Origin: an uncultured virus (IMG/VR IMGVR_UViG_3300017782_000009)
Taxonomy: Duplodnaviria > Heunggongvirae > Uroviricota > Caudoviricetes
Reading direction: 5' to 3' (one strand)
Virus record (IMG/VR): IMGVR_UViG_3300017782_000009
Length of the DNA: 64,000 nt
The position numbers and the translations under genes are program-made. The notes under the pieces are model-generated. The model saw only the letters and a list, made by a program, of their open reading frames with translations. It was not told where the DNA came from and ran no database searches. Within the stretch, counting starts at the first letter, position 1. The number at the start of each line of letters is the position of its first letter. This document shows positions 7,621 through 63,937 of the stretch, one piece after another.

Positions 7621-7640
7621 CCAGGAAAATTATTTAATGA

Positions 7641-7646
7641 TAAATA
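7641..7646 (+). promoter_or_regulatory. Late-promoter-like TAAATA box
   Basis: GATAAATA in the intergenic gap, then GGAG SD and the ATG at 7668; variant of the T4 late promoter TATAAATA. Confidence 0.6.
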
Positions 7647-7667
7647 CACTATACGGAGTAAAAACAA

Positions 7668-10600: not shown

Positions 10601-13600
10601 TGCATATTATAATGGTGCAAGTGGCGTACTTCAAATTGATAGTACAGAGAAAGCGGCAACGATTGCAACATATGGCATTATAAAAGCACACTCACAAACA
10701 GTTTCAAGAGACCTTGCTGTTAGTCCAACGTATCAATCAACTGTTATACAGGTAAGTGGTATCGGTGGAGATGCAGGAGATGCAACTACAATAGGTAACT
10801 TGTTTGACGATATTATTGATATTGTTGATAACGGCCCTAGTAATTCAAGTATTACATATCCTGTAGTAACAGGTGCAGCAGCTGGGCTACAGTCAGCGGC
10901 AACAACATTAGCAAGTAAGAAAACTGAAATTGGTGAGCAAACAATTGACTTCATTAATAACAACTTTGGTAGTTTCAAATATAATAGTGCAATTTGCAGA
11001 AGAGACTTAACAAACATCATTACTGATGTAATGTTTGATGCAGCATTAGGAACAAACTACAATGGTGTTTATAACGGTATTGCTTATACTAGACCAATTA
11101 ACGCATACAACTTAGCAAATCAAAGAGTAGAAACTATTGGTGCTGTTAGAAAGGCTAGAGATTTAGTATTGGCTATTACTAGTGACGCAACTGCTGAAAC
11201 TAGAATTCAATCATCAATGAATGAGATTGTTGATATTATTAATAATAATACAGGTCCAGCTGTTCCAGGAGATGGAGTAGCAGACACATTGAGTTTCCCA
11301 AGTCCATCAGGCGTTGATCAAAACAAAGTAGATGCAAAGGATAACTTAGTAGCAAACAGAGAATTTATTAAAGCAGATATTGTTGCATATGTTAACAACA
11401 ATACACCACCAGTAGGATACGATCAGGCAAAATGTGCTAGAGATGTAGGTTACATAGTTGACGCAATGTGTTATGATGTATTATACGGCGGTACAATGGC
11501 TGCAACAAGAATAACAGAATCATACTTTGGAATTTTTGGTGCAATTTATCCAGCAGGACAAGTAACTGAAACTGTAGCAGCTTATAATCATATGAGTACA
11601 GTGTTAGGTTTAATTGTACAAGAATCAAGTGTTACAGCACAGTCAGGAAACAGCGAAGTTCAAACTACACTGGGTACACCAGCAAGTGCTACAGAAGCTA
11701 ATTCAATAGCAGCAGGTATGACTATTATTACAGATGCACTTACAGCAGGCAATACTGACAGTGTTCCGGCAGTAGTATATCCAAGTGTTACTTGGGCATC
11801 AAGTGCTATTCAGTCAGATAAAACTGATGTTGATACTGCAAGACCTGCAACTATATTAAGTGTATTACAATTTATTACTGATACATATAATGACTTTAAA
11901 TATGATCATGCTAAATGTACTAGAGACATTGGTTTAATCATTGATGCAGCAGCATATGATTGGCAATTAGGTACTAACTATGCTAGTTTAATAACAGCAT
12001 TAAGTTACTTAAGAGCACCGTCAAGTAAAGTTGTTGGAGATCAAAAGACAGCAACGATAGCAGCAAATGAATTTGCAAAAACACTTGCAGTACAAAATGT
12101 AGGTGGCGAAGCAGATGCTATAACAGGAATTAACACAACATGGCAAATAGTTCAAGATACATTATTTGCTGGCGCTGCAGAAGGCGGCATGAAGTCAGTT
12201 GATGATCAAGAAGTGTTTAATGCTATACGTCAATTAGAACTTAATAAAGACTTTATTGCAGACGAAGTTGTTGCTTATGTAAATGATTACTTTAGTGATA
12301 CTATTACAGCAACATCAGTAGTAACTGGTGGTTCAGCAGGTGGAACAAATTCTAATAGATTAACAGTTACTTCAACAGCCTGGTTAGATGAAGGCATGGA
12401 AGTTAAGTTAACTAATACAAACAGTATTTTAGAAAACTCTGGATTGTTCCTTCCTAATACAAAGTACTATGTAAAAGAAATTATTAGTGGAACGCAATTT
12501 AGTTTATCAAATACTGTAGACGGTACAGAAGTAGCTGTAGATAATCCGTGGAGCGGATCAATTAAAATTGAAAAAGCATATGTTTACAACGAGACAACTT
12601 GTAAACGCGATGTTAAAGAATATATTAATGCAATGAAATGGGACCTTGAATGGGCACAGACATGGAAACGTCAGTATAAAATTGGTAATACAGAAAACGC
12701 ATTAACATTCTACAGACCAGGAATATACAAAACATTACTAGCGGCAAGATACTATGTTAATAGTGTTATTGGTTCGCAAGAAGAAGATTTTTACTACTTA
12801 CGTAATGGTACAGGGTTAAGACTTATGTCCATGAAAGGACTACAAGGTGATTTAGGTCCTGCAAACGAGTTTGGAACACAGCGACCAACAGCAGGTGCAT
12901 ATGCATCGTTGGATCCAGGTTGGGGTCCAAACGATAAACGTGTATGGATTACAGCAAGATCACCATATGTACAAAACTGTACAACATTTGGATTTGGAGC
13001 AACTGGTCAAAAAATTGACGGTGCATTACACAACGGTGGTAACGATTCAATTGTTAGTAACGACTTTACACAGGTTATTAGTGATGGTATTGGAGCATGG
13101 ATTACAAACAACGGTAGAGCAGAACTTGTGTCAGTGTTTACATACTACTCACACGTAGGTTATCTTGCAGAGAACGGCGGACGTATACGTGCAACTAACG
13201 GTAATAACTCATATGGTAAATATGGATCGTCAGCAGAAGGTGTTGACCCAACTGAAGTTCCAGTAACAGCAGTTATTGATAACGCATCACAATATAATGC
13301 AACCGTTGCAGGTGTTAATACAAATAATAATGAATTACTAAACGTTGAATTTAGTCATGCAGGTAACGATTATACTGAAGCATTAATTGAGTTCTTTGGT
13401 CCAGGTACTAATGAAGAAGTACTAGCAGACGAATATAGAGACGGAGGAATGTTCCAAACTCGTGTTATTGAAACTACACCAGACACAGCAGGTGGTACTG
13501 GATATACATCAGTATCAAACGTTGCACAGTCCGGTGGAACTACATATGTTGATCTTTCATCAACAGACGGTAACGTAAGTTCAGCATACATTGGCATGAG

Positions 13601-16040
13601 AGTTCAAATTATTGGTGGTGCAGGTATAGGACTATTTGGTATAATTGACACATATGATGCAGGTACAAAACGTGCAACAGTAGTTAAAGTATCAGATGGT
13701 ACAGCAGGTTGGGATCACGTTGTTCCTGGAACAACATTTGCTGCTCCTAACTCTACATCAACATATCTAATTGAACCAGCAGCGACATTTACAGCACCGC
13801 CACAGTCTAATACACAAAGGACACTTAGTGGTGCAACAGAAGTACAAGATGCTATATTTGTAGAAACATCAGCACAGTACACAGGAGTAGCAACAGTTAC
13901 TGAATCAGATGGTACTGGTGCAACATTTGATATTACTAGAAACGGCGAAAAGTATTATGTTACATTAAATAATGCAGGATCTGGTTATGGTAGATTAAAC
14001 CACTGTGAAATTCCAGGAACTTCATTAGGTGGCGCAACACCTGCAAATGATATTACTATTACAATCACAACAATTAACGCAAACACAGGTGCTATTGTTG
14101 ATTTTGACTTTACTGGATTAGGACAAAAAGGTAGATTTGTTGCAATACCAACTAGTGGTACTGGCGGACTTAAAAGTGTTGACGGCATTACTTGGACAGC
14201 AGAAGCGTTACCAACTCCAGGATCAGGTTCATACGAATCAATAGCAACTGGATTATTAGATGACGGTTCAAGTGTTTACAAAACAAGTGCTGTAGTTGCT
14301 GTATGTGCAGGAGATAATACAGCGGCATATAGCATTGATGGAGATACTTGGTCAACTAGTAGTTTACCAGCTGGGCTATCATCTGCAGGCTCTAAGAGCA
14401 TAGCATTTGGTAACGTTGGAACTAACGATAATAGATTTATTGTAACAAGTGTAGGGGATAGAGATGTTGCATTTAGCCAAGACGCAGGGTTAACTTGGTC
14501 GTTGAGTTCAAATGCATTACCAGCAACTGGATATAATTTAGTAAGATACGGAAAAGGCTTGTTTGTTGCAATGAAAACTGGAACTAATGAGACAGCATGG
14601 AGTGCAGACGGTGTTACATGGAGTGCAGGCGCAGGGTTATCTACAGATACATGGACTGACCTAGTTTGGGGTAATGGTCGATTTGTTGCAATAGCGGCAA
14701 GTGGAACCAAAGCAGCATATAGTTTAGATGGTAAAAACTGGACTGATGCAACATTACCAACAGTTGGAACACCAAGAAATATTGCATACGGACAAGGCGT
14801 ATTTGTTGTTACATTCCAAGATGATGCAGACACTATTGTACATTCAGAAAACGGAATACAGTGGACAAGTAAAACTATAACAGCAAACGGAAGTTCAGGA
14901 TACGGTGCAGTTGTATTTGGTAATCCAGGACAAGATGGTAAGTTTATATGTCACACATATGACAGTACATCGGTTGCTGAAGAAGTTAAAGTTGGAGCAA
15001 AAGCAAGAGGAAGAGCAGCTATTGCAAACCAAAAACTATTCCAAATTAACATTGAGGAACCAGGAAGCGGATACACTAGTGCGCCAACAATTACAATTAC
15101 TGATCCAAACAACATTACAGATGTTGAATTACAGGTAAGAGTTGGTAATGGTGCAATAGCAAATCCAACATTTATAAATAGAGGAACAAGTTTCACAACA
15201 GCTACAGCTTCTGTTAATGCAGAAGGAAGTAACGGTAAAGCAGACTTCTTCCAAAACGGAGCATACATTGCTGTTAAGAGATTAACATCAACTCCAGTTC
15301 CAGGATCAAACGTTGTAATTGCTGGAATACCTGACAAGTTCTTTAAACTTGTTAGTACAGTAAGTTTAACTGGTACTAATGATGGTTCTAAGAAAGGATT
15401 CTTACAACTTAGTCCGTCATTAACAATCAGTGAAGCACCAGCAGACGAAGCAGATACATCAATGCGTATTAGATTTAGTCAGGTACGTTTAACAGGACAC
15501 GACTTCTTAGATATCGGTACTGGTAACTTTGTAGATACTAACTACCCAGGTGTTCCAGTTAATGCACCAGTACAAAGTCAAGAAACAAATGACTTTGATG
15601 GTGGTAGAGTATTCTACACAGCAACTGACCAAGATGGTAACTTTAGAGTAGGTGCATTGTTTAGTATTGAACAGGCAACTGGTGTTGCAACACTAGATGC
15701 TGATGCATTTAATATTGCAGGACTACAAGAACTATCACTGGGTGAAGTTACACTAGGTGGTAACTCAGCAAGTATTACTGAATTTAGTACAGATCCATTC
15801 TTTACAGCAAATTCAGATACAGTAGTTCCAACACAAAGAGCTGTAAAAGCGTATATTGAAGCTCAAATTGGTGGTGGTGGTGCATCGCTAAACGTGAACT
15901 CGGTAACAGCAGGCGACATATTTATTAACACCAATCAGATAACAACGGTATCTGGAGAAACGATAAATATCAAAGCAAACGTTAACTTTAGTGGAAGTGT
16001 TCTTGGCTTACCACTAGCATTAAATTACATGTTAAGATAA
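7668..16040 (+). CDS. Giant virion adhesin/fibre protein B (2790 aa)
   Basis: Same MAEFKL start, CBM-like repeats, Asp-box repeats and C-terminal 'GHDFLDIGTG...TDQDGNFR' block as protein A. It adds a cupredoxin-like insert and six 'CxRD(V)GxI(V)D' repeats. Confidence 0.75.
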   Translation: MAEFKLGRIRFVWKNNWATGTTYYKDDVIAFGGKVYICVEGHSSAADFFTDLNIVPSKWNLVSDGQSWLGEWAHSTSYVNNNIVKYGSKLYICQTNHTSTAISGTVTRAVTVAVNTQSPGNNVFVLDGTQYPSIQFQHGKTYEFTQDAASNVTHPLLFSTTKNGTHGAGTEYITGVKYYIDGAEVVDAAAYIAAFDTATNRKITIEPTASTPETLYYYCYNHSNMSIDSEIDIINYGIEADLGNWQTFAEGLDWKGNWTAGYQYRNNDFVKYGGASYVCKTPHTSQAAGLETDQANWELLNKGFDYRSEWVASKKYLENDVVRYGAGLWISIANHTSSSAFATDSANWEKFVEGFQYEAEWTWEGSYQTGDVVRYGGNQYIAKQDNTDKIPPLEPTNWDLFSEGFKFIGDWGADSSQYEHKVGDVVRLGGFTYRCILDHQNQQPPNALYWQRLNSGFEWRGEWIDEQEYFEGDVVRYGDSSYVCILGHISEGDDYSSGQVGAQGSRPDLADSGQYWSALAIGTEQSVLTTTGDLVYYSGSAPTRLPIGKDGQVLQVNADALPEWAFLGASEDVYYVAEHGKDQPAPIYGQSIDRPFKTIKYAAQQVEQGAKNPEAAKLLELNRRFIQREIVEWTDYQITNNTAPFTSSFTYESSKCERDMGLIVDAIINDIKHGGNVRSREAALSYVNETAGSPYLTQKAETVASINYGLTVINNVLAQEDPSVNYQTTNGDNSTAVVSQYKDELLGAELVNAEIAANVKIITDAITAGVDTNIPARVINNTLIKVSTGRYIEVLPIIVPAECCIIGDELRAVTVEPRKADNAVLTPKGDFKYSFKGLERMANIIGDVVTGQTVTPTTGNTQSQNQTWPYAETTVVGPEVTRLARSINDRINVGLGEKRNGNLPTFHAMSDTSAGRARDLVLRNKEFIQAETVAYIADQYPNLNYSRTKCKQDVGLILDSIAYDLTYGGNWMSETAGLAYYNGASGVLQIDSTEKAATIATYGIIKAHSQTVSRDLAVSPTYQSTVIQVSGIGGDAGDATTIGNLFDDIIDIVDNGPSNSSITYPVVTGAAAGLQSAATTLASKKTEIGEQTIDFINNNFGSFKYNSAICRRDLTNIITDVMFDAALGTNYNGVYNGIAYTRPINAYNLANQRVETIGAVRKARDLVLAITSDATAETRIQSSMNEIVDIINNNTGPAVPGDGVADTLSFPSPSGVDQNKVDAKDNLVANREFIKADIVAYVNNNTPPVGYDQAKCARDVGYIVDAMCYDVLYGGTMAATRITESYFGIFGAIYPAGQVTETVAAYNHMSTVLGLIVQESSVTAQSGNSEVQTTLGTPASATEANSIAAGMTIITDALTAGNTDSVPAVVYPSVTWASSAIQSDKTDVDTARPATILSVLQFITDTYNDFKYDHAKCTRDIGLIIDAAAYDWQLGTNYASLITALSYLRAPSSKVVGDQKTATIAANEFAKTLAVQNVGGEADAITGINTTWQIVQDTLFAGAAEGGMKSVDDQEVFNAIRQLELNKDFIADEVVAYVNDYFSDTITATSVVTGGSAGGTNSNRLTVTSTAWLDEGMEVKLTNTNSILENSGLFLPNTKYYVKEIISGTQFSLSNTVDGTEVAVDNPWSGSIKIEKAYVYNETTCKRDVKEYINAMKWDLEWAQTWKRQYKIGNTENALTFYRPGIYKTLLAARYYVNSVIGSQEEDFYYLRNGTGLRLMSMKGLQGDLGPANEFGTQRPTAGAYASLDPGWGPNDKRVWITARSPYVQNCTTFGFGATGQKIDGALHNGGNDSIVSNDFTQVISDGIGAWITNNGRAELVSVFTYYSHVGYLAENGGRIRATNGNNSYGKYGSSAEGVDPTEVPVTAVIDNASQYNATVAGVNTNNNELLNVEFSHAGNDYTEALIEFFGPGTNEEVLADEYRDGGMFQTRVIETTPDTAGGTGYTSVSNVAQSGGTTYVDLSSTDGNVSSAYIGMRVQIIGGAGIGLFGIIDTYDAGTKRATVVKVSDGTAGWDHVVPGTTFAAPNSTSTYLIEPAATFTAPPQSNTQRTLSGATEVQDAIFVETSAQYTGVATVTESDGTGATFDITRNGEKYYVTLNNAGSGYGRLNHCEIPGTSLGGATPANDITITITTINANTGAIVDFDFTGLGQKGRFVAIPTSGTGGLKSVDGITWTAEALPTPGSGSYESIATGLLDDGSSVYKTSAVVAVCAGDNTAAYSIDGDTWSTSSLPAGLSSAGSKSIAFGNVGTNDNRFIVTSVGDRDVAFSQDAGLTWSLSSNALPATGYNLVRYGKGLFVAMKTGTNETAWSADGVTWSAGAGLSTDTWTDLVWGNGRFVAIAASGTKAAYSLDGKNWTDATLPTVGTPRNIAYGQGVFVVTFQDDADTIVHSENGIQWTSKTITANGSSGYGAVVFGNPGQDGKFICHTYDSTSVAEEVKVGAKARGRAAIANQKLFQINIEEPGSGYTSAPTITITDPNNITDVELQVRVGNGAIANPTFINRGTSFTTATASVNAEGSNGKADFFQNGAYIAVKRLTSTPVPGSNVVIAGIPDKFFKLVSTVSLTGTNDGSKKGFLQLSPSLTISEAPADEADTSMRIRFSQVRLTGHDFLDIGTGNFVDTNYPGVPVNAPVQSQETNDFDGGRVFYTATDQDGNFRVGALFSIEQATGVATLDADAFNIAGLQELSLGEVTLGGNSASITEFSTDPFFTANSDTVVPTQRAVKAYIEAQIGGGGASLNVNSVTAGDIFINTNQITTVSGETINIKANVNFSGSVLGLPLALNYMLR

Positions 16041-20420: not shown

Positions 20421-20474
20421 TCTAGTTAAATACTCGTATAAGTAATACTTGATATTATTTTTTAGGAGATATAA

Positions 20475-21368
20475 ATGACAGACAACAATATTGACAAAAA
20501 GGTCGATAGACAACAACAGTATTTTAGTGATGCACCAACAATGCCACTAACTACTAATGTAGATCAATTATCAGAAAAAGATAAAGAAACATTAAGTTCT
20601 GCTTATAATAAGCAATGGACTAATCCAAAATTCAAAATAAAATGGTTTGTGGGTCAAACACAAATTACCCCATTTGCAAAATTGCGTCAGTGGATGTTAG
20701 AACTTAGAAGTAGAGAAGAAACATTACAACAAATTTTGTACGATAATAAAAAATGGGAAGTTGAACGAGATCGCAACCAATGGATTGCTGATAATACTGA
20801 AGACCCATTTGATAAAAGATTAGCACAAATCGAAGCTGAAAACGAAACTAAGAATTTAGATCAGTCTCGTAAGAAACTACGTGAATATTATCTTGAAAGA
20901 CAAAATCTAATTGACCTTATTAATGAGTTTTTAGAGTCAGACGAAGCATTACTTCCAGATGGTTCAGGTAGAACTTATATGGATATTCTTAACACCGAAG
21001 AAGAAGATATATACGAAGCAGAGTATTGGACAAATAGATTAGCAAAACAAGCATCAACAGATCTAGTATTCTACGGCAGAATTAATACAGGAAACATGGA
21101 TGCTATTTTAAGTATGGCACCAGAACAACAAACCGAAACATTAGGACTTGCCCTTAGTTACGCATCTCAGTTACAAACAGTTCAAACTAAATTGCAACTT
21201 GAAGTGGACGAAAAATTAAAGTTAGGAGCTCAACCAACTAAAGATTTATTAACACCACAGCCGATGCAAGAAAAAATAACCAAGCAAGAAGCAGGACAGC
21301 CGTTCGACAGAGATACTTTTGAGCCAATTAACAACAAGGACGACGACTTTGATTTATATAATTCATGA
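20475..21368 (+). CDS. Hypothetical coiled-coil protein
   Basis: AGGAG SD and TAAATA at 20427-20432; helical E/K/Q-rich sequence. Confidence 0.65.
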   Translation: MTDNNIDKKVDRQQQYFSDAPTMPLTTNVDQLSEKDKETLSSAYNKQWTNPKFKIKWFVGQTQITPFAKLRQWMLELRSREETLQQILYDNKKWEVERDRNQWIADNTEDPFDKRLAQIEAENETKNLDQSRKKLREYYLERQNLIDLINEFLESDEALLPDGSGRTYMDILNTEEEDIYEAEYWTNRLAKQASTDLVFYGRINTGNMDAILSMAPEQQTETLGLALSYASQLQTVQTKLQLEVDEKLKLGAQPTKDLLTPQPMQEKITKQEAGQPFDRDTFEPINNKDDDFDLYNS

Positions 21369-21882
21369 AACTATAGCGAGTAATGATCCTCGCTGGATGC
21401 CTGGGATGGATAGAATCGGGGATTTTTGGAATTATACTATAAGCACAGCACCTGACGGAACTTTTGTTGATTGGTTAAATGGTGCTGTTGTTTCAGAAAA
21501 AGCAGCAAAGTCATATAAGTTTGTAACAGCACTAAACGGAGAAATACCAGTAGCAAAACAAACTGATATATACGAACAAATAGTGCAAGATACTGGTGAT
21601 ACACATACTGAAGAAGGTCCTAAATTCTATTACGAGTTGACTCAACAAGATACTAATAACGGACTTCAGTTTTTAAAGACTGTTATGAATTTGCATATTA
21701 AAAATAAATTAGATGCGAACAATGGATACATTCCTGCATTAACTAAAATGGGCAATGAAGTTACTACATTAGACGAAGCTCAGCGTTTAATGTATAATTA
21801 CTTTGAGTGTAATTTTCCTTCGACTAATTTAACTCCCCGTACCCCAACATTTAAAGTTAATTGGGCTGAAAAAGAAACATAA
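21349..21882 (+). CDS. Hypothetical protein, probable TTG start at 21349
   Basis: AAGGA at 21336-21340 precedes an in-frame TTG at 21349 (MIYIIHET...), shortening the overlap with the upstream gene. Confidence 0.55.
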   Translation: MIYIIHETIASNDPRWMPGMDRIGDFWNYTISTAPDGTFVDWLNGAVVSEKAAKSYKFVTALNGEIPVAKQTDIYEQIVQDTGDTHTEEGPKFYYELTQQDTNNGLQFLKTVMNLHIKNKLDANNGYIPALTKMGNEVTTLDEAQRLMYNYFECNFPSTNLTPRTPTFKVNWAEKET

Positions 21883-21888
21883 TTCAAC

Positions 21889-21917
21889 TTGACAGAGATC
21901 GCATTATATGCTATACT
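21889..21917 (+). promoter_or_regulatory. Sigma70-type promoter
   Basis: TTGACA (21889-21894), 17-nt spacer, TATACT (21912-21917), with an extended -10 TG. Confidence 0.8.
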
Positions 21918-21951
21918 AAGTATAAAATATAGCTATACTAGTGAGACATGA

Positions 21952-23622
21952 ATGCAAAAAATATTTAGTGTACCTTTAAACCCTAAACTTTCTCCTGAAC
22001 AATTTCAGGAGTATTATGATTTTTTAAAGACGTACAAACACCTTATATACGATGTATACTTTACAAGTAGAATACCGCCTTTTGTGCAAGATGCAATGGG
22101 TGATATTTTCATGCATAATGAAGATTATTCATATGCAATTAATACAGCATTGTATATTCAACAAGAAATAGGTATACCAGTTAGTGCTACATTTAATAAT
22201 ACTACAGTACCTCCAACACAATCTAATCTAGATACACTTATTAGAAACTTTAAACCGTTGTATGATGCAGGTGTAAGAACTGTAACTATTCCGCATACAC
22301 ATTGGATGGCAACAGGACAAATTAAAAAAGCATTTCCTGAATTACAAGTTAAAAATACAATTTTAAGAGATGTGCGTACTGCCAGTGAAATAGTTAATCT
22401 CGCTAAAGTAGGATTTGATTACATTAATCTTGATAGAGATTTAATGCGTGATAGAGATACATTATTACGTTTGAAAGAGGCAAAAGATTGGATTAAAGTT
22501 AATTTAGGGAAAGAAATAAGGTATAGTTTACTTGCTAATGAAGGATGTTTAGGAAACTGTCCAATGATGGTTGAACATTTTGAGTTTAATAATACAAGAC
22601 AAGATCCAACACCGCAATACTTTAATGATCCTATTAGTCGTGTTAGTTGCCCGAAATGGGACGTATTAGATCCTTCAGTTCATTTAAAAACGGCAGACCT
22701 TCCACCGTGGAAAGAAGACTGGGAAGAATTTTTAAACGACTTAGGTATTGATGTATTTAAAATGCACGGACGTGAAGCAATACCAAGACTTTACGAAACA
22801 ATGGAAATAATTCGTAAATGGGATAGAGACGAAGAAATTGTTGCAGCAGGATTTGAAACATATCTTGAAGAAACAAATTTAAAAGACAAGCCTATTAATA
22901 TATGGCGTAACAAAATTAAAAATTGTAAATTTGATTGTTGGGAATGTCAATATTGTGATAAAATTTATAAGGCTAAGTCAGACTTAGATCATAGTGATAT
23001 TATTAAACATGTAGCATCAGTTATTGCCGATAGCGGAGTACCTAAGATAAAAATTGATGTGCCAGGATTAACTAGTCCAAGAGTACAAACAGTATTAAAT
23101 GGTATTGCACAGGGAGTTGGCAGTTACTTAGAAATTGGCTCATACTTAGGTGCTACAATGTGTTCAGTTATTAAAGATAACCCTATAAATGCTATTGCTA
23201 TTGATCAATGGGAAGAACAAATTCAACCCCAAAAAGACGAAACACTTCCGCCAAACAATCTTGAAGAATTTAAAAAGAACATTGAAAAGTATCAACCTCA
23301 GTCAGGAGGTGTAACTGTAATTAATGCTGATATGATGTCAGTTGATACAACTCCTTGGCAAAAGCAAGTACAGATGTTCTTCTATGATGGCCCTCACGAT
23401 GCTAAAAGTACACGCGATGCTGTTATACATTATTGGAATACATTTGCAAATGAGGTTGTTTTAATATTTGACGATGCTAATTGGGAAGGAGTTGTTGAAG
23501 GCGCAAGAGAAGCAATTAACACCTGTGAAGGATTAGTAACGTATGAGAAGATATTACTAAACAGTGAAGAGAATCCAAAAGAATGGTGGAACGGATTATA
23601 CATATTGGTTGTTAGAACATGA
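21952..23622 (+). CDS. Peptidase-U32-family (Fe-S) domain fused to a class I SAM methyltransferase (Methyltransf_24-like)
   Basis: N-terminal 'INLDRDL', 'LLANEGCLGNCP', 'VFKMHGRE' and 'CKFDCWECQYC'. C-terminal 'YLEIGSYLG', 'FFYDGPH' and 'LIFDD'. Confidence 0.7.
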   Translation: MQKIFSVPLNPKLSPEQFQEYYDFLKTYKHLIYDVYFTSRIPPFVQDAMGDIFMHNEDYSYAINTALYIQQEIGIPVSATFNNTTVPPTQSNLDTLIRNFKPLYDAGVRTVTIPHTHWMATGQIKKAFPELQVKNTILRDVRTASEIVNLAKVGFDYINLDRDLMRDRDTLLRLKEAKDWIKVNLGKEIRYSLLANEGCLGNCPMMVEHFEFNNTRQDPTPQYFNDPISRVSCPKWDVLDPSVHLKTADLPPWKEDWEEFLNDLGIDVFKMHGREAIPRLYETMEIIRKWDRDEEIVAAGFETYLEETNLKDKPINIWRNKIKNCKFDCWECQYCDKIYKAKSDLDHSDIIKHVASVIADSGVPKIKIDVPGLTSPRVQTVLNGIAQGVGSYLEIGSYLGATMCSVIKDNPINAIAIDQWEEQIQPQKDETLPPNNLEEFKKNIEKYQPQSGGVTVINADMMSVDTTPWQKQVQMFFYDGPHDAKSTRDAVIHYWNTFANEVVLIFDDANWEGVVEGAREAINTCEGLVTYEKILLNSEENPKEWWNGLYILVVRT

Positions 23623-24206
23623 TACATAACTTTTTTAGTACTCCTATATACATTGATGCTGATCAAGACAATACAGTTGAATCAGAATTATCATCAATTA
23701 TACCTAGATTAGAGTTTAAGAACGATTGGCAACCTCATAATGATACAGCAAATACTACGTTTATACCAAATAAACAAACTAATATAATAGAAGATTATAA
23801 GTTACTTAATACTAAAAAATTAATTCTTAAGCACGTAAAAAAGTATCTTAATGATGCACAACAGTCTATCGAAGATGAGTATCAAATAGTAGAGTCGTGG
23901 TTAAATATATTTGAGAAAGATAATAACATTGGACTTCATGAACACGGGTATCAACCTAATACAGTAAGTGGAGTATACTATCATAAAGCCGATAAAGATT
24001 GCGGAATGATTTCTTTTAAAAGCCCAAATCCGTTTGTTATTTCTTTCCCTCATAGATGTGAACAGTATAGTAACATTGTTAGAGTTCCACCAGAGCAAGG
24101 AATGATAATATTATTTCCTAGTTGGTTACAACATAAAGTGGAGCCAAACAAAGCAGATAAAGAGAGAGTTTCTTTATCTTTTAACATAGAATTTTTATAT
24201 AGGTAG
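23619..24206 (+). CDS. 2OG-Fe(II) oxygenase (TIGR02466-like)
   Basis: WLN...HEH...SGVYY...LFPSWLQHKV...RVSLSFN; ATGA overlap with the upstream gene. Confidence 0.8.
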   Translation: MIHNFFSTPIYIDADQDNTVESELSSIIPRLEFKNDWQPHNDTANTTFIPNKQTNIIEDYKLLNTKKLILKHVKKYLNDAQQSIEDEYQIVESWLNIFEKDNNIGLHEHGYQPNTVSGVYYHKADKDCGMISFKSPNPFVISFPHRCEQYSNIVRVPPEQGMIILFPSWLQHKVEPNKADKERVSLSFNIEFLYR

Positions 24207-24210
24207 AAGA

Positions 24211-25725
24211 ATGTTTTTAAATAAAGTAAAAAAAATTGTAATATTCGGTGGCGGAACAAGTGGATGGTTATCTGCAGCCTATCTAAGAAATCAATTACAA
24301 GTTCCGGCTGAAATTGTATTAATTGAAGACTCAGATGCAGGACCAATTGGTGTTGGTGAAGGTACACAACCATTAACAGCAGAATTTTTATGGCGTTGCG
24401 GAATACCACCTCACAAGTGGATGAATGCTAGTGATGCATCATTTAAGTATGGTGTTGAATGCATTGGGTGGAACGATGAGCCTTATTTTGTTGACAATGA
24501 CACGGCTGTAAATAGTGTAATTGCTGAGGACTTTTTCTACTCAGACTATTTTATAGACAAACCTTATTCAGAATTAGCAGAATGGCATCCTGCATATCGA
24601 CTTGCTAAAGCAAATAAATCTTTAAAGTATGAAGATTATCTAGATGTTAATACAGGTATGGGACCAAGTGGCTTTGGCTCTGTACATTTTTCTGCATATC
24701 AAATTATTAAAACAATCAAAGATCTAATAATTGACGATATTACATATATTGATACTAAGATTACAAGTATTACAAAAAATGAAAATGGTATTGAATATTT
24801 AATAAATGAAGAAGGCGAAAAATATACAGGTGATTTATTTTTAGACTGTACAGGATTTAGTAGTTTATTACTTGAAAAAGAGTTGGGATCAAAATGGCAG
24901 TCATTTAACGATTTAGGATTACTTACTGATAGAGCTGTAATGATACAGACACAATATACTAATCCCCAAGAAGAATGTCATCCTTATACAAAAGCAACTA
25001 CAATGGATGCAGGCTGGTGTTTTACTATTCCTATCTTTACAAGAGTTGGTAACGGATACATATATTCAAGTAAACATATTAGCGACGAAGATGCCGAAGC
25101 AGAACTAAGAAAACATTTAGGTGAGTATGTTGCACCAGCTAAACACTTAAAGATGAAATGTGGTGCCCATCATCAGATTGCTTTAAAAAATGTAGTAGGA
25201 GTTGGTCTTAGTGCAGGCTTTGTTGAGCCATTAGAAGCAACAGGAATTACATTTACAACAGCACTAGTACATAGTTTAACTGATTTATTAAATGCAAATA
25301 ATAATGTTTGGTCTGACCAAGCCAAACATTTAATGAATCAAGGCTTTGGTGAAATGTCTGCAGAAATATTTACATTTGTTTGGGCACATTATCACTATAG
25401 TACAAGAAGTGATACAGAATTTTGGAAAGAAATTCGTAGCCAAAAAATTGAAGATAGACCAAGATTTGTAAAAGAAATACTTGGAGCATTTTTACCTCAA
25501 CCACAAAGATTTTTACATTTAACACCAAGCAGTATGTTCTGTGTTACACAATGGTTTAGTATGCTTCATGCTGGCGGAGCATATGAAGGAACAGAGTCTG
25601 TTTTAACTGACAAGCAAAAACAATATGCTGAGTATTTTTGTAAATCGCATACCGCTAGAGTAGAACTAGCAGAAGATATGTTTTTAAATCATTATGATTA
25701 TCTAAAAGAATGGTATGAAAGATGA
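24211..25725 (+). CDS. Flavin-dependent halogenase (tryptophan halogenase/PrnA family)
   Basis: GGGTSG FAD motif, IGVGEGT, 'ASFKYG' (catalytic-Lys position), FLDCTGF, GWCFTIP (WxWxIP variant) and GFVEPLEATG. Confidence 0.85.
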   Translation: MFLNKVKKIVIFGGGTSGWLSAAYLRNQLQVPAEIVLIEDSDAGPIGVGEGTQPLTAEFLWRCGIPPHKWMNASDASFKYGVECIGWNDEPYFVDNDTAVNSVIAEDFFYSDYFIDKPYSELAEWHPAYRLAKANKSLKYEDYLDVNTGMGPSGFGSVHFSAYQIIKTIKDLIIDDITYIDTKITSITKNENGIEYLINEEGEKYTGDLFLDCTGFSSLLLEKELGSKWQSFNDLGLLTDRAVMIQTQYTNPQEECHPYTKATTMDAGWCFTIPIFTRVGNGYIYSSKHISDEDAEAELRKHLGEYVAPAKHLKMKCGAHHQIALKNVVGVGLSAGFVEPLEATGITFTTALVHSLTDLLNANNNVWSDQAKHLMNQGFGEMSAEIFTFVWAHYHYSTRSDTEFWKEIRSQKIEDRPRFVKEILGAFLPQPQRFLHLTPSSMFCVTQWFSMLHAGGAYEGTESVLTDKQKQYAEYFCKSHTARVELAEDMFLNHYDYLKEWYER

Positions 25726-26303
25726 CATCAATATTAACGGCTAAGTTTTTTCATAACGAAAATGTAGGTACAGAAGTACAAGTATCTCAACTACTTGATG
25801 ATATCAATAGTGTTTATGATGCAACACCTTCAACAGATGCTACTAATTTAGACTGTTGGAGATCTTCGCATGTTTATGAAAATATAAGTTGGCTAACTGA
25901 TGCAATTATAGATCTAGTAAACGAAAATGTTGATTACTATAGTAAATTAGATAGCATTTTTTCAAAACTAATGACAAAACATAATCGTAAATATATTTTA
26001 ACTTACTGGACTAACGTAAATAACCCAGGAAGTAGAAATGTAATGCATAGTCATAAAGACGCAATATTTTCTGGTGTATACTATGTAAAAGGTGCAGATA
26101 CAGGAGACTTAAGAATAGTTAATCCAGCTAACGTACTAGGAGATTGCGACAGTGCTTCACCATTTGTTAGAGACTTTTATTTTACTCCAGCAGATAAAGA
26201 TCTAATAATGTGGCCAAGTTGGCTACCTCATGAAGTAGAAACAAATAAACATGCAAGTAAAAATAGAATTAATATAGCATTTGATATTAGGATAGCAAAA
26301 TGA
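25722..26303 (+). CDS. 2OG-Fe(II) oxygenase (TIGR02466-like), second copy
   Basis: WTNVN...HSH...FSGVYY...WPSWLPHEV...RINIAFD; ATGA overlap. Confidence 0.8.
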   Translation: MTSILTAKFFHNENVGTEVQVSQLLDDINSVYDATPSTDATNLDCWRSSHVYENISWLTDAIIDLVNENVDYYSKLDSIFSKLMTKHNRKYILTYWTNVNNPGSRNVMHSHKDAIFSGVYYVKGADTGDLRIVNPANVLGDCDSASPFVRDFYFTPADKDLIMWPSWLPHEVETNKHASKNRINIAFDIRIAK

Positions 26304-27037
26304 AAAAGATACAATTTTTCTCAACAATACCAGGTGTAGCAGAAGCATGTCCAATTATACCTGCAAGTAAGTATATTACTAACTGGCAAAAACGAGCTAG
26401 AGAAGACTACAAAGCATCGTCAAAAAGATCAAAAGGTAGGATGGATCATATTGCTCAATGCCCGGGTATATTTGATTTAAACAAACATGGATACATCTTA
26501 CCAATGTGGCATGATGTTTTAATTGAGACTATGGGAGACGGCAAAGAGTTTAAGTGGACAGTCCCAACATCAGATATTCACGAGCTTGCTGAAGGTAAGG
26601 AAATTATTAGTAAGCAACAAACTGGAGTTGAAACACTAATGCCAGTTAAACCTTGGAGCATGACTTCACTAATTAAATTTAACACACCTTGGAACGTTAT
26701 TGCACCTAAAGGTGTTAAATTTATAATGATACCAATTGCATATCCTGATAGTTTTGAGCTAGAAAGTAGTATAGGTATATTAGATCCAAGTGTAAGTACT
26801 GAGTTAAATGTTCAAGCATTTTACAATATTCCTAAAGGAGAATATCTTCTTAAAGCAGGAACACCTTTGGCACAAATTATACCATTATCAGAGCAACAGT
26901 TTGAGTTAGTAGTAAGAGATAAAAATGCAAGTGACGAGCTTTGGTTAAAAAAGAAACAATTTATTATGAACTTTACATTTAAAATTAAACGTAACTTAGT
27001 TCAAGATATATACAATAAACATTTTGGAGGAAAATAA
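26300..27037 (+). CDS. Hypothetical protein, possibly with a dUTPase-like/DUF6065-like beta fold
   Basis: 'CPGIFD...GYILP.W.D', 'KFNTPW...PKG' and 'LKAGTPLAQIIP'; ATGA overlap. Confidence 0.5.
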   Translation: MKKIQFFSTIPGVAEACPIIPASKYITNWQKRAREDYKASSKRSKGRMDHIAQCPGIFDLNKHGYILPMWHDVLIETMGDGKEFKWTVPTSDIHELAEGKEIISKQQTGVETLMPVKPWSMTSLIKFNTPWNVIAPKGVKFIMIPIAYPDSFELESSIGILDPSVSTELNVQAFYNIPKGEYLLKAGTPLAQIIPLSEQQFELVVRDKNASDELWLKKKQFIMNFTFKIKRNLVQDIYNKHFGGK

Positions 27038-28842: not shown

Positions 28843-30840
28843 ATGTCTGAAAGAGAATATGTTGTTGTTGTTAATCGAGGTGAAGACTTAGAGGCATTTG
28901 ATGCCGAACTAGAAGCATCAACAGGTTCTGGCCCAATACCAAATAGATCAGTAGAAGTTGCTAATCCTAGACCTGGATCAGATCGCATGACTCACTGGAT
29001 GCTCACTGACGACGAAGCAGAAGAATTAAAAAAAGATCCACGAGTATATTGTGTAGAAATACCTGTCGATCAAAGAGACGATATTCAAATTGGTCACGCA
29101 GCTAGACAAACAGGAACATTTTATAGAGGTTCAAATTTACAAGCAAGTTATGTGAATTGGGGCTTAAGAAGATGTACAGCAAATGATAACTCAGCATTTG
29201 GATTCCAAACTACACTAACTGGAGATTACGATTATGCTATTGACGGTACTGGTGTTGATGTTGTAATACAAGACAGTGGTATACAAGCAGATCACCCAGA
29301 ATGGGTTAGTACTAAAAATGAACTCATTGATACTGTACAAGGCGGTGTTACTACATTTAATTTTATTGATAACAACATAGCAACTAATGATATATACGTA
29401 CCATATTATCAATTTGCAAATCCTACAGCTAATTATATTGCTTCAATGACAGGAACACCCTGGGCAAACGGACAATATGACGGTGCCGAATTTTTAATAC
29501 GATTTGTTTTAGCAGACGGCAAGACTATAGAAAGAACTAGAATATTCGGAGGTATAGGAAACGGTACAGTAACTGCAGGAAAAAATACTTTCGAACTTAG
29601 TCTAGCAGGTACAATACATATTGAACAAACTGACGAAGATTTAAGACTTGCTTTTACTACTGGTGGCTATACTCAAAACGGAGTAATACAGTTATGGTTA
29701 AAAGCCGGACAGACTAGAATGCGTCAAATAGATTGGTACGGTGCAAGCGGACTTAGTGGTACACAAAATGCAAATCATTATAGAGATGCTGACGGCCACG
29801 GAACACATGTTGCAGGTATAGCAACAGGTAAAACATATGGTTGGGCCAAAGGTGCTCATGTTTATTCACAAAAGTTAGCAGGGCTAGAAACATTATCAGG
29901 AACTGACGGAACAGGAATTGCATCATCAGATGCATTTGATGCTATAAGATTATGGCATAACAATAAACCAATAGACCCAGTTACTGGTGCAAAACGACCA
30001 ACAGTTGTTAATATGAGTTGGGGGTACAGTAGCATTATAACTACTACTCCATCAAGTGGATCTTATAGAGGTACTCCTTGGACATGGGGATCTACATATA
30101 CAGATCGATATGTATTATGGGCAGATACTGGTATACCAACAGCAACTGAAGGTGGTGGCTTTAGAATGCCAGCCCGTGTAGGATCAATTGATGCTGAAAT
30201 TGAAGCCATGATTGATGCCGGCATACACGTTTGTATTGCTGCAGGCAATACCCCAATGAAACATGATGTTTCAAATGGATTAGATTATAATAATGTTGTA
30301 GTGTTTAATGCAATATCTTACGAGTACCATAGAGGAAGTTCACCATATAGTGACCGTGCATTAAATGTAGGTAATATTGACAGTAGTATTCAAGCGTCAG
30401 GAGGAAGCTATTTTGATAAAACAGCAACATCGTCTACTAGAGGTCCTGCTGTAAATATATGGGCACCAGGAAATGGAGTAGTAAGCACAGCAAGTAATAT
30501 AGGTGATGTTTTTTATACTACAATAGATTACCCAGACGATGATAATTACAAAATTATGAACATTGGAGGTACTTCTATGGCGTCTCCTCAAGCAGCAGGC
30601 CTTGTAGCATTAAAGGCACAATCATTACCAACAGCAAGTCCAGATAAATTGCGTCAAGATATTATTAATGATGCAAAAGATGTAGTATATAACACAGGTT
30701 CTAGTACTGATTATGATAACTTAAATCAGAGCTTGTTAGGTTCAGAACCTAACATAATGTTTTCCAAGTATGCGGTATATAATCCAATGTCTTATACAGG
30801 ACCTCTAACAATTCGTAACGTCGGACCTCGATTGCGATAA
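28843..30840 (+). CDS. Subtilisin-like serine protease (S8) with N-terminal propeptide
   Basis: Triad motifs 'VVIQDSG', 'HGTHVAG' and 'GTSMASP'; oxyanion 'AAGN'; VVNMSWG. Confidence 0.9.
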   Translation: MSEREYVVVVNRGEDLEAFDAELEASTGSGPIPNRSVEVANPRPGSDRMTHWMLTDDEAEELKKDPRVYCVEIPVDQRDDIQIGHAARQTGTFYRGSNLQASYVNWGLRRCTANDNSAFGFQTTLTGDYDYAIDGTGVDVVIQDSGIQADHPEWVSTKNELIDTVQGGVTTFNFIDNNIATNDIYVPYYQFANPTANYIASMTGTPWANGQYDGAEFLIRFVLADGKTIERTRIFGGIGNGTVTAGKNTFELSLAGTIHIEQTDEDLRLAFTTGGYTQNGVIQLWLKAGQTRMRQIDWYGASGLSGTQNANHYRDADGHGTHVAGIATGKTYGWAKGAHVYSQKLAGLETLSGTDGTGIASSDAFDAIRLWHNNKPIDPVTGAKRPTVVNMSWGYSSIITTTPSSGSYRGTPWTWGSTYTDRYVLWADTGIPTATEGGGFRMPARVGSIDAEIEAMIDAGIHVCIAAGNTPMKHDVSNGLDYNNVVVFNAISYEYHRGSSPYSDRALNVGNIDSSIQASGGSYFDKTATSSTRGPAVNIWAPGNGVVSTASNIGDVFYTTIDYPDDDNYKIMNIGGTSMASPQAAGLVALKAQSLPTASPDKLRQDIINDAKDVVYNTGSSTDYDNLNQSLLGSEPNIMFSKYAVYNPMSYTGPLTIRNVGPRLR

Positions 30841-32457: not shown

Positions 32458-32712
32458 ATCATTAACTATAGTAGTTAATCTCTTACGTATCTCAATTATT
32501 CGTATTCTATTTTCGTGTAATGAACGAGGATCAATATATCCGTTATTTGCAGGATCGTGACCTGCGTCTATTTGTGCTGCTTCAGATGCTAATTCTTTTA
32601 ATAACTTATTACATTCTTCTTTAAGTGCAGGATTTGATACTAAAGAAAGTTCTTGAGTAAAATATTTTAAGTCTTTTTGAAATTTTGGAAGTTCACTAAA
32701 CTTTAGATTGTT
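32443..32712 (-). CDS. Hypothetical protein (94-aa ORF; likely start MNNLKF at 32712)
   Basis: GAGG upstream of ATG 32712 on the minus strand; last gene of the minus-strand operon. Confidence 0.5.
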   Translation of the reverse strand, partial: NNLKFSELPKFQKDLKYFTQELSLVSNPALKEECNKLLKELASEAAQIDAGHDPANNGYIDPRSLHENRIRIIEIRKRLTTIVNDLKTA

Positions 32713-33079
32713 CATTGTCTGCCTCAATATTACTTGCAGGTATTATGTGATAAACATCTTTAGGATCGTATTTGGTTGCTGTTTCTGCTATAGCACTTCC
32801 TGCATATAAACATTCTAAACTAACAGGCATTAATGGAGGAACATGAAACACTGAACCTTCATTTAAATCGTTTTCATATAGTTTACCTGTTTCAGTATCA
32901 ATCCATCTAATTCTAAGTTGTCCGCTATTAACAAACCACGACTTAGTAGTATTCTTAGTAAAGCTCATGTTAGTTTTTGATCCTATGTGTTCAAATACTA
33001 ATATTTTACTAGAATAATGTTCTGTATTAGCCCATAATACTTCATATCCATATTCAGTTTTAGTTACATTATCATTCAT
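32696..33079 (-). CDS. Cupin-like protein, apparently lacking metal-binding His residues
   Basis: 'YGYEVLWAN.E.YSSKIL', 'SWFVNSG.L', 'L..GSVFHVPPL' fit a cupin layout. Confidence 0.55.
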   Translation of the reverse strand: MNDNVTKTEYGYEVLWANTEHYSSKILVFEHIGSKTNMSFTKNTTKSWFVNSGQLRIRWIDTETGKLYENDLNEGSVFHVPPLMPVSLECLYAGSAIAETATKYDPKDVYHIIPASNIEADNEQSKV

Positions 33080-53315: not shown

Positions 53316-53969
53316 ATGTTCGACGAATTCCAAAATTGGACTGTTCTAAAAGGTGACAGAACCTTAAAAAGAGCAATCCGAGCTCAAGGAACCGAAAACG
53401 TACTACAATATCAAAAAGAACAACTTGATATAGCATTAAGTTTTTGTGAAAACATGCGTCACGGAATTGACATTGGTGCAAATTATGGACTTATGTCTTA
53501 CAACATGTCGCCATATTTTGAACAAGTATCTTCTTTTGAAATAGTTCCTGAACTGAACAAATGTTTCAAACAAAATATGCAAAAGTTTGATATTCGAAAT
53601 GTTAATATATATAATTGCGGTTTAGGTGATAAAGAAAAAGAAGTAGCAATAGACTTTGACCCTCTAAGCACATTTAGAACACATGTTGATAAAGATACAA
53701 AAGGTTCTATTAAAATAAAAACATTAGACAGTTACAATTTTGGAAATGTGGACTTTATTAAAATGGATGTTGAAGGATACGAGCCTTTAGTTGTTAAGGG
53801 CGGAATAAAAACAATTGAAAAATTTAAACCTGTTATACTATACGAACAAAAAGGCCACGCTGAAAGATTTGGTTATAGAAAAAATATTGTTATGGAACTG
53901 CTTAGAGATCTCAAATATAGAAAACTAGCAAACGTAGGATCTAAAAATGCACTAATAGGTGTTATATAA
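53316..53969 (+). CDS. FkbM-family methyltransferase
   Basis: 'IDIGANYG', 'SFE', 'FIKMDVEGYE', 'KPVILYE'; TAAATA at 53286 and AGGAG SD. Confidence 0.85.
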   Translation: MFDEFQNWTVLKGDRTLKRAIRAQGTENVLQYQKEQLDIALSFCENMRHGIDIGANYGLMSYNMSPYFEQVSSFEIVPELNKCFKQNMQKFDIRNVNIYNCGLGDKEKEVAIDFDPLSTFRTHVDKDTKGSIKIKTLDSYNFGNVDFIKMDVEGYEPLVVKGGIKTIEKFKPVILYEQKGHAERFGYRKNIVMELLRDLKYRKLANVGSKNALIGVI

Positions 53970-53984
53970 TGAAATGGAGATTGA

Positions 53985-55156: not shown

Positions 55157-55201
55157 CACCATAATATAGTTCCTGCCATTAAGTACGCACTAAATACTAG
55201 C

Positions 55202-63570: not shown

Positions 63571-63580
63571 GGAGAAACAC

Positions 63581-63937
63581 ATGACTTTAAAAGCAGGAAA
63601 AATATGGGGTCAAACAGAACTGATTCACGCAAACGGTGTACTAGAGTTTCATCGTATTGAATATAAAGGCGGATTTAAATGTTCAGAACACGAACACAAA
63701 TTTAAATGGAACGGCTTCTTTGTTGAGTCAGGCAAGATGTTAGTACGTGTTTGGCAAGACGATCAAGAAGGATTAGTTGACGAAACTATTTTAAATCCAG
63801 GAGACTTTATGCAAGTAAAGCCAGGCAAAGTACATCAGTTTGAAGGAATAGAAGATGGTGTAGCATTTGAACTATACTGGGCAGAGTTTAATCACGATGA
63901 TATTGTTAGACGTACAGTAGGAAGTCCAGTTAAGTAA
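63581..63937 (+). CDS. Cupin-domain protein (sugar isomerase-like)
   Basis: AAGGAG SD; 'KIWG', 'CSEHEH', 'FFVESG', 'PGKVHQF'. Confidence 0.75.
   Translation: MTLKAGKIWGQTELIHANGVLEFHRIEYKGGFKCSEHEHKFKWNGFFVESGKMLVRVWQDDQEGLVDETILNPGDFMQVKPGKVHQFEGIEDGVAFELYWAEFNHDDIVRRTVGSPVK

What the first reader, a model, noticed from the sequence alone, without database searches (positions are those of the whole stretch)
21952..23622. U32-family domain with two Cys clusters fused to a SAM methyltransferase
Seen: 'NEGCLGNCP...VSCPKW' and 'CKFDCWECQYC' lie in the N-terminal ~350 aa, followed by a Methyltransf_24-like domain. The Cys spacing differs from the CX6CX15CX3C motif described for UbiU. Inference: a single polypeptide that hydroxylates then O-methylates, analogous to ho5U to mo5U formation in tRNA or ubiquinone ring tailoring. 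It would be mis-annotated as a collagenase.
Basis: partly seen in the sequence, partly recalled or inferred. Interest (0 to 1): 0.75.

Follow-up and report, generated by a model that had tools for sequence, protein, structure and literature searches.

The report
Phage U32-like iron-sulfur enzyme–methyltransferase fusion
A marine T4-like phage encodes one protein that joins a very divergent relative of the oxygen-independent "U32" iron-sulfur hydroxylases to an O-methyltransferase-type domain, so it probably adds a methoxy group to a target that is still unknown.

Summary
ORF 21952-23622 (+, 556 aa) has exactly seven Cys in its first 350 residues. All seven are invariant in 63 relatives (CX3CX29C plus CX3CX2CX2C). 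A Methyltransf_24 domain follows.

The C-domain looks most like cation-dependent O-methyltransferases, TrmR/YrrM included.

The gene always follows one unknown helical gene (phrog_1409). In other phages a DUF401-type permease follows it; this window has none.

Hydroxylation followed by O-methylation is the best mechanism, but it is inferred and the substrate is unknown. A small aromatic molecule is favoured over tRNA or fibre protein. It is not annotated as a collagenase anywhere I looked.

The scan reached the same reading on other DNA at least eight times before. I found no paper on it.

The parts
21952..23622 (+). Whole gene, 556 aa: U32-like Fe-S barrel fused to a class I SAM methyltransferase (phrog_1458)
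   Evidence: ORF. phrog_1458 matches full length at E 1.4e-171. 1987 homologues at E<=1e-5.
21952..23001 (+). N-domain, aa 1-350: (beta/alpha)8 barrel plus a C-terminal helical Cys knuckle; distant U32-superfamily member
22546..22650 (+). First Cys group, C199-x3-C203-x29-C233, just after barrel strand 7, with E197, E208 and H209 nearly invariant
   Evidence: Invariant in 63 of 63 sequences and in 64 of 65 distinct fused homologues. Strand 7 is aa 190-194.
22750..22773 (+). Strand-8 motif DVFKMHGR (aa 267-274), which the extended hhalign places on the U32 'KIEGR' motif
   Evidence: K270, G273 and R274 are kept in 65 of 65. The alignment with mact 0.01 places it on UbiU K270-G273-R274; confidence is low in that stretch.
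22924..22956 (+). Second Cys group, C325-x3-C329-x2-C332-x2-C335, in a short helical C-terminal knuckle
   Evidence: Invariant in 63 of 63 and 65 of 65. pLDDT is 92-94 across aa 320-340.
22987..23619 (+). C-domain, aa 346-556: class I SAM methyltransferase, closest to cation-dependent O-methyltransferases
20475..21368 (+). Obligate neighbour: 297-aa acidic, Cys-free helical protein (phrog_1409) of unknown function
   Evidence: phrog_1409 E 1.4e-40. Found upstream in 76 of 80 viral loci; the 4 misses are cut within 600 nt of the 5' end. Also upstream in cyanophage S-H25 and Ralstonia phage RP31. Ten invariant residues in 31 sequences. No PDB or Atlas relative.
21319..21882 (+). Small conserved gene between the partner and the fusion gene (187 aa as listed; true start uncertain)
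   Evidence: ORF. Homologue present in 50 of 80 loci. No family hit.
21889..21917 (+). Sigma-70-like promoter match TTGACA-17-TATACT with TG, in the 69-nt gap before the gene
   Evidence: 11 of 12 positions match, the joint best of 36 sites. The total number of sites is no more than in shuffles (mean 37.2), so this is a consensus match only.
23619..27037 (+). Downstream block present in part of the family: 2OG-Fe(II) oxygenase, flavin (Trp-type) halogenase, 2OG-Fe(II) oxygenase, phrog_7084
   Evidence: PF13759 at 1.1e-21 and 1e-15; PF04820 at 2.1e-86; phrog_7084. Present in 55-57 of 80 loci and absent from the L081-L104 clade.

Best explanation
The gene encodes a two-domain enzyme. Shown: the N-domain is a (beta/alpha)8 barrel whose nearest known relatives are the U32 proteins UbiU/UbiV, TrhP and RlhA. 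Those proteins are needed for O2-independent, prephenate-dependent hydroxylation of aromatic or pyrimidine carbons. Inferred: the N-domain carries metal centres built from seven invariant Cys, most likely [4Fe-4S], arranged 4+3. Three of the Cys lie between barrel strands 7 and 8, where U32 proteins place their cluster ligands. Four lie in an extra C-terminal knuckle that U32 proteins lack. Shown: the C-domain is an intact class I SAM methyltransferase of the cation-dependent O-methyltransferase type. Inferred mechanism: the barrel oxidises and hydroxylates an sp2 carbon of the substrate, with the Fe-S centres carrying electrons. The fused domain then methylates the new hydroxyl with SAM, giving a methoxy group. 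The enzyme works with the invariably adjacent phrog_1409 protein, which I take to be an accessory or substrate-presenting subunit, as UbiT or UbiV is for UbiU. The substrate is unknown. I favour a small aromatic metabolite. In other phage lineages the same core is followed by a DUF401/CitMHS-type permease. In this lineage a halogenase and two 2OG oxygenases have been inserted behind it.
Confidence: 0.5

Rival explanations
1. It is a phage version of the tRNA or rRNA pathway: the barrel makes 5-hydroxyuridine or 5-hydroxycytidine in RNA, as TrhP and RlhA do, and the fused domain makes the 5-methoxy base, as TrmR does. This would retune decoding for the AT-rich phage genome.
Against: There is no extra RNA-binding domain and no Pfam hit beyond the methyltransferase. 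The protein and its partner are acidic, pI 5.0 and 4.6. The window has no tRNA gene. The conserved neighbours are a helical unknown and, in other lineages, a permease. TrmR is rank 10, not the top methyltransferase match.
Confidence: 0.12
2. It modifies a virion protein: it hydroxylates and methylates aromatic side chains of the adhesin-like fibre-tip proteins encoded just upstream.
For: It is embedded in the fibre module. phrog_1417 fibre-tip-like genes lie upstream in 73 of 80 loci and in cyanophage S-H25. Earlier scan note e1-5917847 favoured this reading (not tested by me).
Against: In Ralstonia phage RP31 the partner, barrel and permease occur without a phrog_1417 gene nearby. A permease neighbour does not fit a protein substrate. 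No U32 protein is known to act on proteins apart from the old, doubtful 'collagenase' label (my recollection). The bacterial member is not next to phage structural genes.
Confidence: 0.13
3. The barrel is an Fe-S enzyme of a different chemistry, for example a reductase, a dehydratase or a radical enzyme using the CX3CX2C triad. The methyltransferase then methylates C, N or S rather than a new hydroxyl.
Against: No Radical_SAM hit appears in the window protein or among the families found in 63 relatives. The triad lies after strand 8, not after strand 1. No radical SAM structure is among the 50 best VIA matches. The top six methyltransferase matches are all O-methyltransferases.
Confidence: 0.2
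4. It is a peptidase ('collagenase') of family U32, as the historical family name suggests.
For: Only the family's MEROPS/Pfam name, plus the BFVD relative labelled 'Peptidase'.
Against: Characterised U32 proteins are Fe-S proteins needed for hydroxylation. The fusion to a SAM methyltransferase and seven invariant Cys do not fit a protease. No source annotates it as a collagenase.
Confidence: 0.02

Closest known systems
TrhP1/TrhP2 (YrrO/YrrN, U32) with TrmR (YrrM) of Bacillus subtilis; TrhP (YegQ) of E. coli: tRNA U34 to ho5U to mo5U
   Different: No PF01136 match and a different Cys pattern. The TrhP C-terminal domain is absent. The protein is acidic. The conserved neighbours are phrog_1409 and, elsewhere, a permease. 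It is phage-borne and sits in a fibre module.
UbiU/UbiV with UbiT: O2-independent, prephenate-dependent ubiquinone ring hydroxylation
   Same: UbiU is a barrel-only U32 protein of about 330 aa with no RNA domain. It needs a second protein, and each hydroxylation is followed by an O-methylation (by UbiG). hhalign aligns aa 18-178 of the phage protein to UbiU 9-156.
   Different: UbiU and UbiV each bind one cluster through 4 Cys (CX6CX16CX38C and CXnCX12CX3C). Here there are 7 Cys in two groups. phrog_1409 is not SCP2-like and has no Pfam hit at threshold. Hosts such as cyanobacteria do not make ubiquinone (my recollection).
Mk0906 of Methanopyrus kandleri (PDB 5D88), the solved U32 barrel
   Different: Sequence identity is 10%. 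The phage domain adds a longer strand 7-8 insert and the C-terminal Cys4 knuckle, which lie outside the aligned range 1-280.
RlhA (YdcP): 23S rRNA C2501 to ho5C
   Same: It is a U32 barrel with additional C-terminal Cys residues (sequence).
   Different: RlhA is 653 aa with large extra domains and matches PF01136. It is not fused to a methyltransferase.

Membership tests
Peptidase U32 family (Pfam PF01136) | Match to the curated family profile at or above its cut-off (22.4 bits) | tested here: not met
   No PF01136 hit at E<=0.1 for the protein. 1 of 63 relatives hits at E 0.033. The nearest virus record has none.
Peptidase U32 family (Pfam PF01136) | TIM-barrel fold closest to a solved U32 protein | tested here: met
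Peptidase U32 family (Pfam PF01136) | Profile-profile similarity to bona fide U32 sequences | tested here: met
   hhalign against 12 U32 proteins gives 86.7%, E 4.3e-6, score 50.8 over 145 columns. 40 shuffles scored at most 18.2 and the reversed alignment 12.2. No decoy TIM-barrel families were available as a control.
Peptidase U32 family (Pfam PF01136) | Four-Cys motif CX6CX15CX3/4C between strands 7 and 8 (PMC6747719) | tested here: not met
   The pattern here is C199-x3-C203-x29-C233 in that insert, plus C325-x3-C329-x2-C332-x2-C335 at the C-terminus.
Peptidase U32 family (Pfam PF01136) | Strand-8 K-I-E-G-R motif | tested here: inconclusive
   K270-x-x-G273-R274 is kept in 65 of 65 and falls on UbiU KIEGR in the extended alignment. 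That stretch has low alignment confidence. That the motif is family-defining is my reading (3 of 4 E. coli paralogues).
Peptidase U32 family (Pfam PF01136) | Binds a [4Fe-4S] cluster; prephenate-dependent hydroxylation | not testable with these tools
   Needs anaerobic biochemistry and labelling.
Cation-dependent class I O-methyltransferases (COMT/CCoAOMT/TrmR type; Pfam Methyltransf_24 / COG4122) | Curated profile match | tested here: met
   PF13578 scores 36.6 bits against a cut-off of 26.3, E 9.3e-9, aa 393-508. 119 of the 120 listed homologues carry PF13578.
Cation-dependent class I O-methyltransferases (COMT/CCoAOMT/TrmR type; Pfam Methyltransf_24 / COG4122) | Class I Rossmann-like fold nearest to O-methyltransferases | tested here: met
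Cation-dependent class I O-methyltransferases (COMT/CCoAOMT/TrmR type; Pfam Methyltransf_24 / COG4122) | SAM-binding motif I (ExGxxxG) and an acidic residue after strand 2 | tested here: met
   E394, G396 and G400 are kept in 65 of 65, and D418 in 64 of 65.
Cation-dependent class I O-methyltransferases (COMT/CCoAOMT/TrmR type; Pfam Methyltransf_24 / COG4122) | Asp/Asp/Asn metal-binding triad after strands 4 and 5 | tested here: inconclusive
   D479 (64 of 65), D507 and D508 (64 of 65 each) and N510 (65 of 65) are conserved at the expected places. Their equivalence to the COMT triad is recalled, not aligned residue by residue here.
Radical SAM superfamily | CX3CX2C triad after strand 1 of a partial barrel, and a PF04055 match | tested here: not met
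   The spacing is present (C325/C329/C332) but lies after strand 8. There is no PF04055 hit.
TrhP-type tRNA hydroxylase | Characteristic C-terminal domain shared by TrhP and YrrO (PMC6599085) | tested here: not met
   Pfam finds no domain other than Methyltransf_24. The barrel ends in a Cys knuckle and then the methyltransferase.

The most novel reading that the evidence does not exclude
This is the founding example of a virus-borne, two-centre (4+3 Cys) branch of the U32 hydroxylases. Together with the phrog_1409 protein, and in other lineages a DUF401 permease, it converts a host or environmental aromatic small molecule into a methoxy derivative during infection, without using O2. In this phage the neighbouring VirX1-like halogenase and 2OG oxygenases tailor the same molecule. 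That would reveal the long-sought natural substrate of viral halogenases and a phage-made specialised metabolite.
Probability: 0.25. Interest if true: 0.8.

Novelty: new variant of a known kind. Interest (0 to 1): 0.55.

Why it matters
U32 proteins are the only known route to O2-independent, prephenate-dependent hydroxylation, and only three of about twelve subfamilies have a known role. This phage family has at least 310 clusters at 50% identity and is common in marine T4-like phages, cyanophages included. It is invisible to Pfam and NCBIfam and is annotated only as 'hypothetical' or 'methyltransferase'. Three features make it a good handle for an in-vitro U32 assay, which did not exist as of the 2024 paper read here: the fixed fusion to an O-methyltransferase, the obligate partner gene and the different Cys architecture. 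They also give a way to ask what chemistry abundant ocean phages add to infected cells.

Tried and rejected
1. Sequence searches of the PDB found nothing relevant, whether with the protein, the N-domain profile, the C-domain or the partner profile.
2. NCBIfam gave no hit.
3. hhalign of the family against single UbiU or UbiV sequences found nothing (prob <1%). A signal appeared only with U32 alignments.
With P0143 it found no genome locus. With P0149 it found two.
5. The window's own assembly is not held. The nearest virus record has no PF01136 match.
6. Complex prediction for barrel plus phrog_1409 was unavailable, so whether they bind is untested.
8. The ESM Atlas gave no usable hit for phrog_1409.
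9. Cluster look-up of 10 relatives returned only 'hypothetical protein' or no name.
10. No tRNA gene is in the window.
11. No permease homologue is in the window.
12. RNA-library contigs leave most of 22740-24450 uncovered in the four runs laid. That says nothing about expression.
13. Chorismate-mutase idea for phrog_1409: no Pfam support, so I dropped it.
14. Literature: no paper holds both 'peptidase U32' and 'cyanophage'. The terms 'U32', 'prephenate', 'hydroxylase' and 'phage' together gave one irrelevant genome paper. The VirX1 search gave two reviews, seen as a listing only.

Full report
**What is there.** The window is part of a T4-like marine myovirus. It carries giant fibre genes at 2104-16040 and a sheath gene at 38111. 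It also carries a terminase at 46679 and UvsX at 51476. The finding's coordinates are exactly one ORF: 21952-23622, + strand, 556 aa. All three quoted Cys strings are present. Pfam places Methyltransf_24 at aa 393-508 (E 9.3e-9, above the cut-off). PHROGs knows the whole protein as phrog_1458 and the N-domain alone as phrog_36869, both listed as 'unknown function'.

**Are the Cys meaningful?**
- An exhaustive phmmer search with aa 1-350 found 310 clusters at E<=1e-3, 173 at <=1e-10 and 74 at <=1e-30.
- In an alignment of 63 full-length members (23-47% identical to the query, mean column identity 23%), the only invariant columns are C199, C203, C233, C325, C329, C332 and C335.
- These are all the Cys the domain has.
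- In 65 distinct fused homologues from 80 viral loci they are kept in 64-65 of 65. The single miss is a gap in an end-cut sequence.
- E197, E208, H209, D267, K270, G273 and R274 are also nearly invariant.
- The pattern is CX3CX29C plus CX3CX2CX2C. It is not the CX6CX15CX3/4C pattern reported for most U32 families (passages in PMC6747719).

**Is the N-domain U32-like?** By the ordinary profile test it is not. PF01136 gives no hit at E<=0.1, only 1 of 63 relatives reaches E 0.033, and NCBIfam and PDB sequence searches are empty. More sensitive tests say otherwise:
- The AlphaFold model is confident (pLDDT 93.4, pTM 0.92) and shows an eight-stranded barrel.
- Foldseek ranks the solved U32 protein Mk0906 (5D88) first, at E 6.5e-7.
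- Among viral models, the first hit outside its own family is 'Peptidase [Escherichia phage OLB35]' (E 1.5e-10).
- hhalign of the 63-member profile found nothing against single UbiU or UbiV sequences.
- Against an alignment of the four E. coli paralogues it gave 64.7% and E 6e-5.
- Against 12 U32 proteins (four from E. coli plus eight diverse plasmid-borne ones) it gave 86.7%, E 4.3e-6 and score 50.8 over 145 columns, aligning aa 18-178 to UbiU 9-156.
- Forty column-shuffled versions scored 10.4-18.2 and the reversed alignment 12.2.
- Conserved residues meet conserved residues: D34 with D22, P129 with P108 and R162 with R142.
- In the extended, low-confidence alignment K270/G273/R274 fall on the U32 'KIEGR' motif.
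- ESM-Atlas neighbours are named 'Peptidase U32', and 20% of the members of two neighbouring clusters carry PF01136.

My reading is that the domain is a deep, uncurated branch of the U32 superfamily. It fails two defining features of PF01136 membership, the profile match and the Cys motif, so I do not file it as a member. The caveat is that I had no other TIM-barrel alignments to use as decoys.

**Topology of the Cys.**
- C199 and C203 come directly after strand 7 (aa 190-194).
- C233 lies in the insert before strand 8 (aa 268-270). This is the same insert that carries the cluster ligands in U32 proteins, as in 'HGALCxxxxxxC' after the matching strand.
- The CX3CX2CX2C group is an extra, confidently modelled C-terminal knuckle.
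- Seven Cys suggest 4+3, meaning either two clusters (one with a non-Cys or open site) or one cluster plus a Zn site.
- I could not read coordinates, so this remains inference.
- Distant paralogues lie two genes from a NifU_N gene, which fits Fe-S dependence.

**The C-domain.**
- The model is confident (pLDDT 95.4).
- The gradient is shallow, with tRNA m1A58 enzymes at 15.2-15.7.
- SAM motif I (E394-x-G396-xxx-G400), D418, D479/H482/D483 and D507-D508-A-N510-W511 are near-invariant in 65 sequences.
- The domain is therefore intact and under selection.
- It diverges much faster than the barrel (13-30% against 52-59% identity in the same proteins).
- It is absent from many relatives, including Ralstonia phage RP31 ORF136.

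**Context.** The counts below are for the best 80 viral loci of the 294 that matched.

| Neighbour | Loci with it (of 80) |
|---|---|
| phrog_1409 gene, directly upstream | 76 (the 4 misses are cut within 600 nt of the 5' end) |
| phrog_1417 fibre-tip-like genes, further upstream | 73 |
| Small 187-aa gene | 50 |
| Halogenase / 2OG oxygenase / phrog_7084 block, downstream | 55-57 (absent from clade L081-L104) |

- The phrog_1409 plus barrel pair recurs in cyanophage S-H25 and in the Ralstonia jumbo phage RP31.
- phrog_1409 is acidic, Cys-free and helical, and has ten invariant polar or aromatic residues.
- It has no relative in Pfam, the PDB or the Atlas.
- A DUF401/CitMHS-type permease follows the gene in RP31, in S-H25 and in 35 of 80 loci. 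It is absent from this window.
- One bona fide bacterial member exists, in a Victivallales MAG.
- A strong sigma-70-like match lies in the 69-nt gap before the gene, but the site count in the region is no higher than in shuffles.
- Short RNA-library contigs from four studies cover parts of the gene and its neighbours, which is weak evidence of transcription.

**Mechanism.**
- Characterised U32 proteins (UbiU/V, TrhP, RlhA) are Fe-S proteins required for O2-independent hydroxylation of an aromatic or pyrimidine carbon.
- Prephenate is the O donor in that reaction.
- Direct in-vitro activity had not been shown as of 2024 (passages in PMC6747719, PMC6599085 and PMC10990095).
- In B. subtilis, trhP1/trhP2 share an operon with the COMT-like trmR, which methylates the new hydroxyl. 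trhO-trmR fusions also exist.
- By analogy, the most economical reading is that the barrel hydroxylates and the fused domain O-methylates (confidence 0.5).

On the substrate, I rank the options in this order:
1. **A small aromatic metabolite.** This is favoured by the permease association, the inserted halogenase and oxygenase genes, the acidic proteins and the lack of an RNA domain.
2. **A different Fe-S chemistry altogether** (0.2).
3. **Fibre-protein modification** (0.13).
4. **tRNA or rRNA modification** (0.12).
5. **A peptidase** (0.02).

**Novelty.**
- No paper in the searchable library links U32 to cyanophage. A second search combining U32, prephenate, hydroxylase and phage returned one irrelevant paper.
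- Public annotation says only 'hypothetical' or 'methyltransferase'.
- This scan has reached the same reading at least eight times on other DNA. My tests were run independently and agree with it. The permease lead in note e1-5903934 was checked and holds for the family, but not for this window.
- I class it as a new variant of a known kind: a U32-superfamily Fe-S barrel with a new 7-Cys architecture, fused to an O-methyltransferase, phage-borne, with an obligate unknown partner.

**Not done.**
- Inspection of Cys geometry in the model.

Noticed in passing
L019:6004-7356 (also L004, L014, L006, L012); L003:4385-5713 and 5652-7031: A second, distant subfamily of the same barrel (about 450 aa, 26-30% identical, all 7 Cys kept) sits in the replication module of other marine T4-like phages. 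The gene order there is clamp loader, regA-like, the paralogue, a 245-aa unknown, NifU_N Fe-S assembly protein (8.7e-51), then a 2OG oxygenase. One contig has two copies in tandem, which recalls the UbiU/UbiV and TrhP1/TrhP2 pairs.
   Followed up: partly
L002:5977-7056; L001:8248-9192; 35 of 80 loci L025-L104: A DUF401/CitMHS-type membrane permease follows the fusion gene, or the stand-alone barrel, in Ralstonia phage RP31, in cyanophage S-H25 and in 35 of 80 viral loci. In the L081-L104 clade it follows directly. It is missing from this 64-kb window.
   Followed up: partly
L113:7001-8113: A stand-alone family member lies on a 64% GC Victivallales MAG contig among ordinary bacterial genes (DEAD-box helicase, EamA transporter, DUF1559/N_methyl protein). 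So the family is not purely viral.
   Followed up: partly
window 53316-58591: A sugar-modification cluster: two FkbM-type methyltransferases, with a third methyltransferase-like gene between them, a cytidylyltransferase fused to a mannose-6-phosphate-isomerase cupin, and a GT8-like glycosyltransferase.
   Followed up: no
window 28843-30840: A 665-aa subtilase (Peptidase_S8, 2.6e-26) is encoded between tail-fibre genes.
   Followed up: no
window 32696-33079 (-) and 63554-63937 (+): Two small cupin genes of the same PHROG (phrog_7851, 'cysteine dioxygenase'). The first is next to a NUDIX hydrolase on the minus strand.
   Followed up: no
window 20457-22660, 23388-23538, 24475-25077: Short contigs (151-561 nt, >=99% identical) from four seawater metatranscriptome runs of four studies cover parts of phrog_1409, the small gene, the fusion gene and the halogenase. 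This is compatible with transcription, but DNA carry-over is not excluded.
   Followed up: partly
window 46679-48259: The large terminase is closest (53%) to PA5oct-like Pseudomonas jumbo phages rather than to cyanophages. The phage is therefore a distant T4-like lineage of unknown, probably heterotrophic marine, host.
   Followed up: no
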